From NCBI RefSeq assembly GCF_024298765.1, contig NZ_CP101210.1: 64,000 nt of DNA. The stretch is one strand, 5' to 3'. Below are positions 9,001 to 12,000 of this stretch, one piece after another (positions within the stretch are counted from its first letter, which is position 1; every line of letters begins with the position of its first letter). The stretch comes from Escherichia coli (GTDB taxonomy: Bacteria; Pseudomonadota; Gammaproteobacteria; Enterobacterales; Enterobacteriaceae). Made by a program: the position numbers.

Positions 9001-12000
9001 TGACCACCAAATAAAAAAACGCCAGAATCAAACTGCCGTTAACGACAAAGTTTGTCCCTTGTCTGGCATAAAAAGGCAACAGAATCAGACCGCCGATCAG
9101 CATACTCCAGCCGACGACAGGCAACGTGCCATAGCGGGCAATCAGCGTTGAGGGATAGGTGGTATAGAATGCCGCAGCAAATGCCGAGGCAATGCCCCAG
9201 AATAACGCGGCAGGAGAGATCGATAATGACGTCGGATTACCGTGTGTCACCAGTAAAAAAGTCCCGACCAGCGATGTCAAAATAGCGCAAAAAACCAGAA
9301 TGCCCGGGCGGGATTTACGCACCAGTGAGAACCAGGCGACGATAATCGTCGGTGAGAGGAATTGCAGCACCGTTGCCGTGGCAGCATTCGATTTTTCAAT
9401 GGTCAGTAAAAAGGTGAGCTGTACGGTTAGCGCGCCAACCACGGAAAAAATCAGCAGACTAATGGCATCTTTGTGATTGTTAATAATAGAAAAGATTTTA
9501 TCGCCATGAACAAATGACAGCGTCAGCAGAATCAAACCGGCGAATATCAAACGCGTCATAGTCAAAAACTGCGACGACATCTGGCTTTGCTCCATGATGT
9601 ATTGCGCGCAGACCCCTGAACTTCCCCACAACACGGCGGCAATCAGAACGTTCAGCATCCCCTTTCTGGTGGAACCCATTTTTCCCTCTGCATACTGTTT
9701 TGTCTTTTCATCAATATACGTTAAGGATACCACTACCGATGACGGTGAGGGAGTAGAGTAATCAATCAGTTTTAGTGAATGGAGGAAATAATGACATATA
9801 ACAATTATTCATATGGTATTTAAAAAAACTCAATATGAAATTTAATTATTTAATGTTCAATAACTCTATGGCTTTAGTATATTCATCAGGAATACCAATT
9901 GTAAAACAAGGTGCGGTATCGGTAGGTAGATTTTCTTTGTTATCATCATCCAGAACAGAAATAGAAAATTGTCGTTCAGGTGTTGATGTCGTGGTTATTA
10001 AAATGGTTGGATTAGGAAGAGAAACATATGTTGTATCATTTTTTAGTTTTATTTCTTTGATGTTTTCTTTGTTAATTTTATCAATCGTTTCAATAGAGAA
10101 AAAAGAATCATACCCCATTCGCAGTTCAATTTTATTATCGTTTTCGAATAAATAAATGGCATTATTGTTTTGAAGCAGATTGAATATATTGTTAGCGCAA
10201 GTTTGAGTTGCTAGCCAGGATGCCGCTGGATGACTCAAATTAATATGCGTGCTAAAGACTTTGACGCGACTACTTCTGTTTTTCTCTTTACTTTCAATTA
10301 AATGCCTAGCGCTTTTGGCTGCTTTACAAGTTCCATGCCCCACACGGCAAAAATAATCTCCTGAAAGGATACTTACAATCAGTATTACACCAATGACGAC
10401 AGAAAAAATAGTTCCGATGAGTTTGATGATGACAATCCTTGTGCAGTGTTATTTTCACCATGGATTATAATGTTATAGTGAAATTATTGCGCATGTAATT
10501 TTTCTTTGATTGTTTTAACATCACATTTATGCACTTCTTCATCTTTGTAGCAGGTAAAAGCCATATATGGATGGCTGGTGTCCGGTGCAGATAAAATGCA
10601 ACTTATTCTTGATAGCTTGAAAAAAAGAGAGGTTTTTTTGAGTGACGGTTGATAGTCGGTGGCAAGGAAGACGTTTTCGTACACTCGGCAAGAAAAACGA
10701 ATCACTCTGTCATACTACCAGATACATCAGCAGGGTCAGGTTGCTCAGAAATAAGCAGGATGGGGATCACTGAAGAGGCATTTTGGCGATCACAGGAGTC
10801 GAATATGAGTGTTAATGTTTTGATTTTAAATGATTAATCTGTGTTGGATAAATGAGTAACCCCCATAAGAACCCCCAAATAACTTTGTGTAAGGGAATGA
10901 AGCTAAAATACACAATCGAATCAATTCTTAGAGCTTTATTATGAAGGTAACACTCCCGGATAGTGTTTCGCAATAATATCATTCAGCCTGTCAACCAGTT
11001 CTGGTTTCCTGAACCTGATGTGCGCGGAGCCTTTCTTAAAGTATCTGATGCTGAACATCTCATCTTCATAGCATTCTTTACCCTGAACAGACCGGATGTG
11101 ATCATCCAGACGAATAGTGATGTTTTCCCGGTTGTCGGGGATCGGTTTACCGCTGAACAGGTGCAACATTCTTTCCAGATCGGCGAGTCGGTCAGCCTGT
11201 TGCCCGGTGATAAGATGAAATCCCCACCGGTCCCACCTTACCAGGTTGTTAATGATAATTTTACTGCCAAATTTACAGGGGCAATTAGTTTTGTAATTCC
11301 AGCTCAGTCCCCTGAAGACGTTGATCACCCCTCGCTCAAACACTTCATCTTTGTTCTGGTGCAGTTGTTTAAATGTGCTCAGAATGTTCGCTTCGCTGAT
11401 TTCCGGAAAATTATCGTATTCCAGTGACCGGTACCATGTCTCACGGGCCTGCGCATCCATTAATGACAGCATCCCGGAACGTTGCATCAGGTCACGCCAG
11501 ATTTCGCGATCGAGATTGCGGGTGATGGCTTTCATTGCCGTTTCAGGTTTTTCCATCAGCCAGCAACCACAGCGAAAATCCTGTTTCATCGCCCAGTCCA
11601 GTGCGGCTTTACCGTCAATACTTTCTGTCATTGCTGAGATTTCTGCCAGTTGCCGGGTAAGTGTGTCGATTTGCAGCAGCGTACTCTTTCGTACAGCCAG
11701 AATGTGGCGGATACTGGTTGAGCAGATAACGTCCGTATGCCCGTTGACCACTTCCGGACGGGGGGCTGTGATTTCAGACATAATCGATATTCCTTTTTGC
11801 AGATAAATGAAAACGCCTGCCCTGTTCAGGCTGGCGTCAGTGGAATGAAGTCTGGTGAGTAAGACTCACCGGTTCTGGTACAGAAGCTGCAGTTGGCGCA
11901 GGGTACGGATATCCTCCCTGGCCTGTTCAATACAGGGCAACAGTGCTGCCGAATCCGTTTTGTCCTCATCGTTGTCAAAGATAATTTCCGATTCGCAGTC

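What the first reader, a model, noticed from the sequence alone, without database searches (positions are those of the whole stretch)
9680..10343. Island junction directly after yicL, with an AT-rich orphan ORF and no selC or setC
Core synteny ends at the yicL start; the next 0.6 kb are extremely AT-rich and hold a 165-aa ORF whose in-frame upstream extension encodes a hydrophobic segment but lacks ATG, GTG or TTG (possible non-canonical start or decay). In E. coli K-12 this flank carries setC and tRNA-selC, a classic island integration site. I found neither, and no integrase in the window, so the integrase/tRNA end must lie elsewhere or has been deleted.
Basis: partly seen in the sequence, partly recalled or inferred. 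Interest (0 to 1): 0.4.

Follow-up and report, generated by a model that had tools for sequence, protein, structure and literature searches.

The report
Far end of selC island; mis-started gene
This is the ordinary far end of a known kind of about 86-kb genomic island inserted at the selC tRNA gene of E. coli, whose tRNA and integrase lie about 32 kb beyond the window; the "orphan" ORF beside it is a real, conserved small envelope-protein gene that probably starts at a rare AUC codon and is annotated too short.

Summary
The sequence facts are right: a stretch of 33% G+C, a 165-aa ORF with a hydrophobic in-frame extension that has no ATG/GTG/TTG, and no selC, setC or integrase in the window.

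The interpretation needs correcting.
- **Synteny break.** K-12 synteny ends at 9708, 29 bp upstream of yicL.
- **Island end.** The real end of the island is 1.1 kb further on. It is an exact 16-bp copy of the selC 3' end at 10788-10803, plus a second published repeat at 10859-10879.
- **Segment in between.** The 1,065 bp at 9709-10773 lie outside the island. They are an alternative chromosomal flank found in about 20% of E. coli genomes. About 67% carry yicT'-setC there instead.
- **Missing tRNA and integrase.** In genomes near-identical to the window, a P4-type integrase and selC sit 31-32.5 kb past the window's right edge.

The ORF ('Aec81' in UniProt) is a real gene of 193 codons in three lineages. 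dN/dS is 0.16-0.22 for the annotated part and 0.17-0.48 for the hydrophobic extension. Distant homologues begin with MK and a membrane helix. A conserved AAGGA followed 8 nt later by AUC or AUU suggests a near-cognate start codon. That step is inferred, not shown.

The junction is ordinary and already described; the start codon is a modest new lead.

The parts
8756..9679 (-). yicL (carboxylate/amino acid/amine transporter), the last gene shared with K-12 on this side
   Evidence: ORF list, RefSeq annotation of an identical genome, 97.4% identity to K-12 up to window 9708
9709..10773 (.). 1,065-bp AT-rich replacement segment (34.7% G+C). It stands where K-12 has 1,892 bp with yicT' and setC. 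It lies between yicL and the island's attR, so it is outside the island.
   Evidence: blastn against K-12: homology ends at 9708 and resumes at 10774. G+C. Window 9740-10880 is present in 1102 of 5426 E. coli genomes, next to yicL in every genome examined. The setC allele is in 3652 of 5426.
9846..10427 (-). Revised aec81-like gene: 193 codons plus stop. It encodes an N-terminal membrane helix or signal anchor (residues 3-21), then a beta-rich domain of about 165 aa with four cysteines (27, 34, 77, 174). RefSeq annotates only 9846-10343 (165 aa, GTG).
   Evidence: Exactly 193 codons, with no indels, in E. coli, an E. whittamii-like lineage and lineage L011. dN/dS is 0.16-0.22 for the annotated part and 0.17-0.48 for the N-terminal part. 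Remote homologues of 199-205 aa begin MK + helix + YxC[RK]V...C. P(open frame by chance) is about 4e-7.
10425..10440 (-). Proposed translation start region: Shine-Dalgarno AAGGA (10436-10440), then ATC (10428-10430, spacer 5 nt) and ATC (10425-10427, spacer 8 nt). There is no ATG/GTG/TTG in frame.
   Evidence: AAGGAT..CAT(C/T)AT(C/T)AAACT(C/T)AT(C/T)GG is conserved in three lineages, and from the ATY codons onward the changes are at third codon positions only. The Entomohabitans homologue has AAGGA + 8 nt + GTG-AAA, and the P0057/P0061 lineage has GGA + 8 nt + ATG-AAG. The 86-nt region is identical in 1070 of 1104 E. coli records and is unannotated in every listed hit.
10365..10421 (-). Hydrophobic helix LIGTIFSVVIGVILIVSIL (residues 3-21)
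   Evidence: Kyte-Doolittle 19-residue maximum of 2.89 at residue 3. AlphaFold2 helix at residues 3-21.
10464..10469 (-). Candidate -10 hexamer TATAAT upstream of the gene (unverified; weak -35)
   Evidence: Read from the sequence. TATTAT and TAATAT stand at similar positions in the two other lineages. The consensus scan did not flag it.
10784..10803 (-). attR: a remnant copy of the selC 3' end. The exact 16-bp repeat TTCGACTCCTGTGATC (10788-10803) is followed by GCCA. It lacks the TTCC of the tRNA. The 10 nt after it (10774-10783) match the sequence downstream of selC in K-12.
   Evidence: Single exact match in the window, 0.01 expected by chance. Alignment to selC of strain 104 and of K-12. 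The same repeat is published for selC islands (PMC6174562).
10859..10879 (-). Second island-end repeat, TTTGGGGGTTCTTATGGGGGT. Its partner TTTGGGGGTACTTTAGGGGGT lies about 110-130 bp from selC at the other end.
   Evidence: Regex search of the window and of strain 104. Both sequences are identical to those reported for GIselC17584/1 and the avian island (PMC6174562).
10804..64000 (.). The part of the selC island that lies in the window. About 85.7 kb lie between the repeats. The island continues about 32.5 kb beyond the window, to the integrase and selC.
   Evidence: The window is collinear with strain 104, with 14 mismatches over 57.9 kb. Annotation.
10939..11781 (-). First island gene (DUF4942). 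It opens a CP4-like module: DUF957, cbtA/cbeA, JAB/RadC, antirestriction, DUF932.
   Evidence: Pfam PF13708, E = 1.1e-69. Annotation.

Best explanation
The region is the chromosomal flank at the far (attR) end of an island of about 85.7 kb. The island was integrated by a P4-type tyrosine integrase into the 3' end of tRNA-Sec (selC).

Integration duplicates the last bases of selC. One copy stays in the tRNA, next to the integrase and about 32 kb beyond the window. The other marks the distal end at 10788-10803. A second short repeat lies just inside each end.

The 1,065 AT-rich bases between that repeat and yicL are not part of the island. They are an older, polymorphic flank that K-12-like strains have replaced with yicT'-setC.

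This flank carries one real gene, called Aec81 in UniProt. It encodes a protein of about 193 aa with an N-terminal membrane helix or signal anchor and a cysteine-containing, beta-rich domain that probably faces the periplasm. The annotated GTG start cuts the protein between its first two conserved cysteines. Translation most likely begins at a conserved near-cognate AUC (AUU in relatives), 5-8 nt after an AAGGA Shine-Dalgarno sequence. That would give weak expression.

Shown here: the repeats, the boundaries, the position of selC and the integrase in near-identical genomes, the purifying selection, and the homologue architecture.
Inferred: the actual start codon, export of the protein, disulfide bonding and low expression.
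For: Island end:
- There is one exact 16-bp copy of the selC 3' end in the window, with 0.01 expected by chance. It is followed by the selC-downstream bases seen in K-12.
- The second repeat and its partner are present. Both are identical to the published ones (PMC6174562).
- Strains with different islands, or with only a 1.2-kb rhuM islet between two copies of the repeat, share the same flank and the same attR.

selC and the integrase:
- The window is collinear with strain 104 (14 mismatches over 57.9 kb). It is 100% identical to FDAARGOS_1286 over 24 kb.
- In both genomes the integrase and tRNA-Sec follow, then yicJ and yicI.
- The integrase carries Arm-DNA-bind_3, Phage_int_M and Phage_integrase domains.

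The gene:
- It has 193 codons with no indels in three lineages. dN/dS is 0.16-0.22, and 0.17-0.48 for the helix part.
- The homologue in the E. whittamii-like lineage also lies next to yicL.
- Remote homologues start MK + helix + a conserved Cys motif.

The start:
- AAGGA + AUY-AUY-AAA is conserved in three lineages, confirmed in independent samples for the two non-E. coli ones.
- The GTG and ATG starts of the remote homologues have the same spacing after the Shine-Dalgarno sequence.
- A 1-nt indel just upstream rules out a shared upstream reading frame.
- AUC and AUU initiate at about 1-2% of AUG in E. coli (bioRxiv 10.1101/063800).
Against: - The contig beyond the window was not seen. The position of selC and the integrase rests on near-identical complete genomes.
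- No experimental data (N-terminal proteomics, ribosome profiling) exist here for the start codon.
- AUC has no confirmed natural use as a start in E. coli; only AUU, in infC and pcnB.
- The E. whittamii-like homologue has an in-frame GTG 37 codons upstream that it could use.
- One low-coverage metagenome contig has ATG three codons upstream of the proposed start (P0002/L010).
- Within E. coli, the substitution counts are too small to show selection (3-7 changes).
- The structure model is only moderately confident (pLDDT 62.9) and gives no fold assignment. The function of the protein is therefore unknown.
Confidence: 0.8

Rival explanations
1. The ORF is a decaying pseudogene. An ancestral ATG start was lost, and the 5' part with the hydrophobic segment is no longer translated.
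For: - There is no canonical start in frame.
- Truncated or frameshifted variants exist in databases (P0006, P0010, P0016, P0021).
- dN/dS within E. coli is 0.27-0.63, on very few changes.
- One metagenome variant has ATG at the AGG codon.
Against: - The frame stays open for 193 codons in three lineages that differ by dS of 0.7 or more, at a composition where the chance is about 4e-7.
- dN/dS is well below 1, including in the 5' part.
- The same AUY codons and the same Shine-Dalgarno sequence are kept in all three lineages, which independent start loss would not produce.
- 1070 of 1104 carrier records have an identical 5' region.
- The frameshifted variant read in detail (P0016) has single-base losses in two T6 runs at once, the pattern of homopolymer sequencing errors.
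Confidence: 0.15
2. The annotated 165-aa protein starting at the GTG at 10343 is the real product: a soluble cytoplasmic protein.
For: It is RefSeq/PGAP's call in every annotated genome examined. It is the only canonical start that gives a long ORF.
Against: - The GTG sits inside the conserved motif C-R-V-G-x-G-T-C, between the first two conserved cysteines.
- The 28 codons upstream evolve as coding sequence.
- All distant homologues carry the helix.
- The nearest AGGAG is 14 nt from the GTG, too far for a good Shine-Dalgarno sequence (read from the sequence).
Confidence: 0.05
3. Translation starts at the ATG at 10461 in another frame and reaches the main frame by slippage, or by phase variation, at the T6 run (10403-10408).
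For: - The ATG frame (MVKITLHKDCHHQTHRNYF...) joins the main frame if one T is lost.
- Such a fused form exists in databases (P0016).
Against: - The ATG is not conserved. The E. whittamii-like lineage has a 1-nt indel there, and L011 has no ATG at all.
- P0016 also lacks a base in a second T6 run further on and ends early, which points to homopolymer assembly errors.
- 97% of carrier records have the T6 form.
Confidence: 0.03
4. The island junction lies at the yicL start, and the selC and integrase end has been deleted.
For: There is no tRNA, setC or integrase in the 64-kb window.
Against: - The attR repeat is at 10788-10803.
- selC and the integrase are present 31-32.5 kb further on in genomes that match the window at 99.98-100%.
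Confidence: 0.02

Closest known systems
AGI-3, the selC-associated genomic island of avian ExPEC strain BEN2908 (Chouikha et al. 2006, J Bacteriol 188:977), and GIselC17584/1 of LEE-negative STEC (PMC6174562)
   Same: - Integration is at selC.
- The 16-bp repeat TTCGACTCCTGTGATC is the same, and so is the second repeat (TTTGGGGGTACTTTAGGGGGT and TTTGGGGGTTCTTATGGGGGT).
- The ORF cluster carries the UniProt name Aec81, which fits the 'aec' gene names of AGI-3 as I recall them.
   Different: - The island here is about 85.7 kb, against 49.6 kb for AGI-3.
- Its cargo is a mosaic: ireA, hlyE, the fec and pgt operons, a PTS/transketolase module, and two adhesin-like genes beyond the window.
- The 2006 paper is not in the library, so gene-by-gene identity was not tested.
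Other selC islands: LEE of EPEC/EHEC, PAI I of UPEC 536, SHI-2 of Shigella, SPI-3 of Salmonella (from general knowledge, except SHI-2, mentioned in PMC6174562)
   Same: - They use the same tRNA attachment site and a P4-type integrase.
- rhuM, known from SPI-3, is the only gene of the minimal selC islet in strains Ecol_743 and A3. It survives as the fragment yicT in K-12.
   Different: The cargo is entirely different. No type III secretion or aerobactin genes are annotated in the island of the near-identical genomes.
infC and pcnB, the two E. coli genes with a confirmed non-canonical (AUU) start codon
   Same: A near-cognate AUY codon stands at a proper distance from a Shine-Dalgarno sequence and is conserved among relatives. 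Low translation efficiency is expected.
   Different: - The codon here is AUC in E. coli (AUU in relatives), and it is not experimentally confirmed.
- The gene belongs to the accessory genome.
- No autoregulatory logic of the infC kind is known or proposed.

Membership tests
tRNA-associated genomic island with a P4-type integrase | Direct repeat of the tRNA 3' end at the distal boundary | tested here: met
   An exact 16-bp copy is at 10788-10803, with 0.01 expected by chance. It aligns to selC of K-12 and of strain 104.
tRNA-associated genomic island with a P4-type integrase | tRNA gene and adjacent tyrosine integrase at the proximal boundary | tested here: inconclusive
   Neither is in the window. 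Both are present 31-32.5 kb beyond it in two complete genomes that match the window at 99.98% and 100%. The integrase domains were confirmed. The source contig itself could not be read.
tRNA-associated genomic island with a P4-type integrase | Mobility genes, mosaic cargo, and presence or absence varying among strains | tested here: met
   The island holds IS2, IS30, IS66, IS3 and IS1 copies and a CP4-like module. Only 93 of 5426 genomes hold at least 80% of window 40000-64000.
AGI-3 / GIselC family of selC islands | The published pair of end repeats (16-bp selC repeat plus the TTTGGGGGT..GGGGGT repeat) | tested here: met
   Both sequences are identical to those quoted in PMC6174562.
AGI-3 / GIselC family of selC islands | Shared gene content with AGI-3 (aec genes, carbohydrate uptake module) | not tested
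   Neither the AGI-3 sequence nor the 2006 paper is held. The only link is the UniProt name Aec81 for the flank ORF.
Genes with a non-canonical (AUY) start codon | No canonical start in frame, while the upstream codons are under purifying selection | tested here: met
   The L011 lineage likewise has no ATG/GTG/TTG between the last stop and the helix.
Genes with a non-canonical (AUY) start codon | Near-cognate codon conserved at the proper distance from a Shine-Dalgarno sequence | tested here: met
   AAGGA + 5 or 8 nt + AUY is present in three lineages. The GTG and ATG starts of remote homologues have the same spacing.
Genes with a non-canonical (AUY) start codon | Experimentally determined N-terminus or mapped initiation site | not testable with these tools
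   This needs proteomics, retapamulin/Onc112 ribosome profiling, or reporter fusions in a carrier strain.
Pseudogene | Frame disruptions or relaxed selection (dN/dS near 1) | tested here: not met
   The frame is intact over 193 codons in three lineages, and dN/dS is 0.16-0.48.

The most novel reading that the evidence does not exclude
The aec81-like gene would be a natural E. coli gene whose translation starts at AUC (AUU in sister lineages). This near-cognate start would have been kept by selection across Escherichia lineages, holding a small exported envelope protein at very low level. It would be the third confirmed non-canonical start in E. coli and the first with AUC. It would also show that annotation pipelines systematically shorten such genes: the listed records among 1,104 E. 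coli matches all leave the 5' part unannotated.
Probability: 0.5. Interest if true: 0.45.

Novelty: new member of a known kind. Interest (0 to 1): 0.25.

Why it matters
For the island, this is housekeeping. It places the true boundary, shows that nothing was deleted, and shows that the selC-yicL flank has two common alleles (setC or aec81). In the aec81 allele only 29 bp upstream of yicL match K-12.

For the ORF, the corrected gene model turns an 'orphan cytoplasmic hypothetical protein' into a conserved, probably exported envelope protein. It also gives a concrete, easily testable candidate for a naturally conserved AUC/AUU start codon in E. coli, where only two non-canonical starts are confirmed.

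Tried and rejected
- Pfam, NCBIfam and Rfam gave nothing for the ORF or the segment. The only hits were sub-threshold noise: Patatin at E = 0.022 and FliL at E = 0.031.
- A scan of one genome per species (GTDB) and a scan of viral contigs found no relatives.
- The full HMMER scan of 1.84 billion representative proteins found only about five lineages.
- The Chouikha 2006 paper could not be read.
- The consensus promoter and terminator scan found no more sites than in shuffled sequence.
- I rejected the ATG(10461)-plus-slippage idea, because the ATG is not conserved and the fused variants look like homopolymer errors.
- I rejected the idea that the AT-rich segment is the island's own terminal cargo, because it lies outside the direct repeats and is shared by strains with different islands.
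Full report
**Observation**

The window is E. coli DNA with nepI, yicS, nlpA and yicL (8756-9679, minus strand). The stretch 9680-10343 has 32.7% G+C, against 48.4% for the window. Its in-frame upstream extension (…*HCTRIVIIKLIGTIFSVVIGVILIVSILSGDYFCR-VGHG…) is hydrophobic and has no ATG, GTG or TTG. ARAGORN finds no tRNA in the window. K-12 has selC, yicT' (pseudogene), setC and yicL here. The one correction is that K-12 homology runs 29 bp past the yicL start, to 9708.

**Where the island really ends**

A blastn comparison with K-12 shows homology ending at 9708 and resuming at 10774-10803. 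That second stretch corresponds to the last 24 nt of selC plus 10 nt downstream, with a 4-bp deletion.

The exact 16-mer GATCACAGGAGTCGAA (reverse complement TTCGACTCCTGTGATC, the selC 3' end) occurs once in the window, at 10788-10803. Shuffled sequence gives 0.01 matches.

A second repeat, TTTGGGGGTTCTTATGGGGGT, lies at 10859-10879. Its partner TTTGGGGGTACTTTAGGGGGT lies about 110-130 bp from selC in strain 104. Both repeats, letter for letter, are reported for the selC island GIselC17584/1, with reference to the avian island of Chouikha et al. (PMC6174562).

The island therefore begins at 10804, not at 9680.

**Where selC and the integrase are**

The window is collinear with E. coli strain 104 (NZ_CP029164.1), with 14 mismatches and no indels over 57.9 kb. 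It is 100% identical over 40000-64000 to FDAARGOS_1286, EC31 and CT282.

In strain 104 and FDAARGOS_1286 the island continues for about 32.5 kb beyond the window: transketolases, a YadA-like gene, further PTS genes, IS elements, a TonB-dependent receptor and an autotransporter. It ends with a tyrosine integrase and tRNA-Sec, followed by yicJ and yicI. The integrase has the domain set Arm-DNA-bind_3, Phage_int_M and Phage_integrase.

About 85.7 kb lie between the two repeats.

**What the AT-rich segment is**

The 1,065 bp at 9709-10773 lie between yicL and attR, so they are outside the island.

- Window 9740-10880, which holds this segment, is present in 1102 of 5426 complete E. coli genomes, and it lies next to yicL in every genome examined. 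The K-12 alternative (yicT'-setC) is present in 3652 of 5426.
- Strains with quite different DNA on the island side share the same segment, the same 4-bp-deleted attR and about 75 bp of island end. Examples are the CP4-like module here and in IPCEC42, and DUF2441 with a retron-type HNH gene in UPEC 26-1.
- In strains Ecol_743 and A3 the 'island' is only 1,223 bp between two copies of the repeat. It holds a single gene, rhuM.
- K-12's yicT is a fragment of that rhuM, and K-12 has no second repeat copy.

The selC-yicL interval is thus an old, repeatedly remodelled integration site with two common flank alleles.

**The ORF is a real gene and is annotated too short**

*Homologues.* Protein searches found close homologues in E. 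coli (a cluster of 1799 sequences, one named Aec81 in UniProt). They also found a 72%-identical homologue in contigs whose neighbouring gene belongs to Escherichia whittamii (there too next to yicL), and a 60%-identical one beside an integrase-like gene (L011). Two distant lineages at 20-25% identity complete the set: one from Entomohabitans teleogrylli and one from metagenomes.

*Selection.* Counted from the second Ile codon upstream of the helix, all three closer lineages have exactly 193 codons with no indels. The table gives dN/dS against the E. coli copy.

| Compared with | Annotated part | 28-codon hydrophobic extension |
|---|---|---|
| E. whittamii-like lineage | 0.22 | 0.17 |
| Lineage L011 | 0.16 | 0.48 |

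At this base composition an open frame of that length has a chance of about 4e-7.

*Architecture.* The distant homologues are 199-205 aa. They begin MK, then a hydrophobic helix, then the motif (Y/W)xC(R/K)V…C. Four cysteines align across the family. The annotated GTG falls between the first two conserved cysteines. The real product therefore includes the helix. It is most likely a membrane-anchored or exported protein whose cysteines form disulfides outside the cytoplasm; export and disulfides are inferred.

**The start codon**

In E. coli the sequence is AAGGA-TTGTC-ATC-ATC-AAA-CTC-ATC-GGA (10440→10416, minus strand). The other lineages read as follows:

| Lineage | Sequence at the start |
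|---|---|
| E. coli (window) | AAGGA-TTGTC-ATC-ATC-AAA-CTC-ATC-GGA |
| E. whittamii-like | AAGGA-TCGTC-ATC-ATT-AAA-CTT-ATC-GGT |
| L011 | AAGGA-TTTGC-ATT-ATT-AAA-CTC-ATT-GGC |
| Entomohabitans | AAGGA-TTTTAAGC-GTG-AAA |
| P0057/P0061 | GGA-CTTTAATG-ATG-AAG |

- From the Ile codons onward, the differences among the first three lineages are at third codon positions only. Independent samples give the same sequences for the two non-E. coli lineages.
- In the two distant lineages a canonical start follows the Shine-Dalgarno sequence by the same 8 nt and is followed by Lys.
- Upstream of AAGGA, the E. coli and E. whittamii-like sequences differ by a 1-nt indel. E. coli has in-frame stops there. L011 has no canonical start between its last stop and the helix.
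- The 86-nt 5' region is identical in 1070 of 1104 E. coli records, and every listed hit shows no annotation over it.

The most economical reading is initiation at a conserved near-cognate AUC or AUU. Such codons initiate at about 1-2% of AUG in E. coli, and only infC and pcnB (both AUU) are confirmed natural cases (bioRxiv 10.1101/063800). This step is inference; no expression data were available.

**Rivals**

- *Pseudogene that lost its start.* This is disfavoured by the selection signal and by the shared AUY codons.
- *The annotated GTG start.* This is disfavoured by the conserved motif it cuts and by the 14-nt distance from the nearest AGGAG.
- *Start at the out-of-frame ATG at 10461, with slippage at the T6 run.* The ATG is not conserved. 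The fused database variant P0016 also lacks a base in a second T6 run, as homopolymer errors would produce.

**Function**

**Verdict**

The junction is an ordinary, already described selC island end. The 'missing' tRNA and integrase are simply outside the window. The only modestly new point is the corrected gene model, with its probable AUC/AUU start.

Noticed in passing
window 10859-10879 (-); strain 104 locus L002 41186-41206 (-): A GGGGGT-containing 21-bp repeat lies just inside both island ends. About 75 bp of island-end sequence around it are conserved across unrelated selC islands (alignment A1). It could be an arm-type binding site for the integrase. The repeat itself is already published.
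   Followed up: partly
loci L006 (Ecol_743) 3560-4796 and L007 (strain A3): This is a minimal selC 'islet' of 1,223 bp between two copies of the 16-bp repeat, with rhuM as its only gene. K-12's pseudogene yicT is a fragment of the same rhuM.
   Followed up: yes
window 9680-9845: Only 29 bp upstream of the yicL ATG are shared with K-12. The rest of the 166-bp aec81-yicL spacer is allele-specific, and no terminator-like site was found between the two co-oriented genes. yicL regulation may therefore differ between setC-type and aec81-type strains.
   Followed up: no
window 24307-26355, 36899-37783, 39023-46568, 52808-59031, 62086-64000: The island cargo in the window is a mosaic of modules known from other E. 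coli islands: ireA, hlyE, fecIRABCDE, pgtPCBA, and a PTS/transketolase module that continues beyond the window. IS2, IS256, IS3, IS1, IS30 and IS66 copies or fragments lie between them.
   Followed up: no
window 32620-33099 (-), 33999-34433 (+), 35518-36279 (-): The island carries its own ProQ/FinO-family gene, an H-NS-family paralogue, and a dGTP triphosphohydrolase-like gene next to a recombinase fragment. These could be regulators of island genes or a defence gene.
   Followed up: no
locus L011 (Logan ERR11042459) 2927-3521: The 60%-identical homologue of the ORF sits on a contig beside an integrase-like gene (Phage_int_SAM_2/Integrase_1) and an HTH gene. The family therefore also travels on other mobile elements. 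Its gene caller start (an ATG inside the helix) is likewise too short.
   Followed up: partly
protein P0016 and relatives: Database variants that fuse the out-of-frame ATG to the main frame lack one T in each of two T6 runs. They come partly from complete genomes. They look like homopolymer assembly errors and could mislead a phase-variation reading.
   Followed up: partly
locus L008 (E. whittamii-like) 187-2000: Between the intact selC 3' end and the aec81 homologue, this lineage has a flagellin lysine-N-methylase (FliB-like) gene and a fragment of a DUF4942 gene. That is another layer of past insertions at the same site.
   Followed up: no
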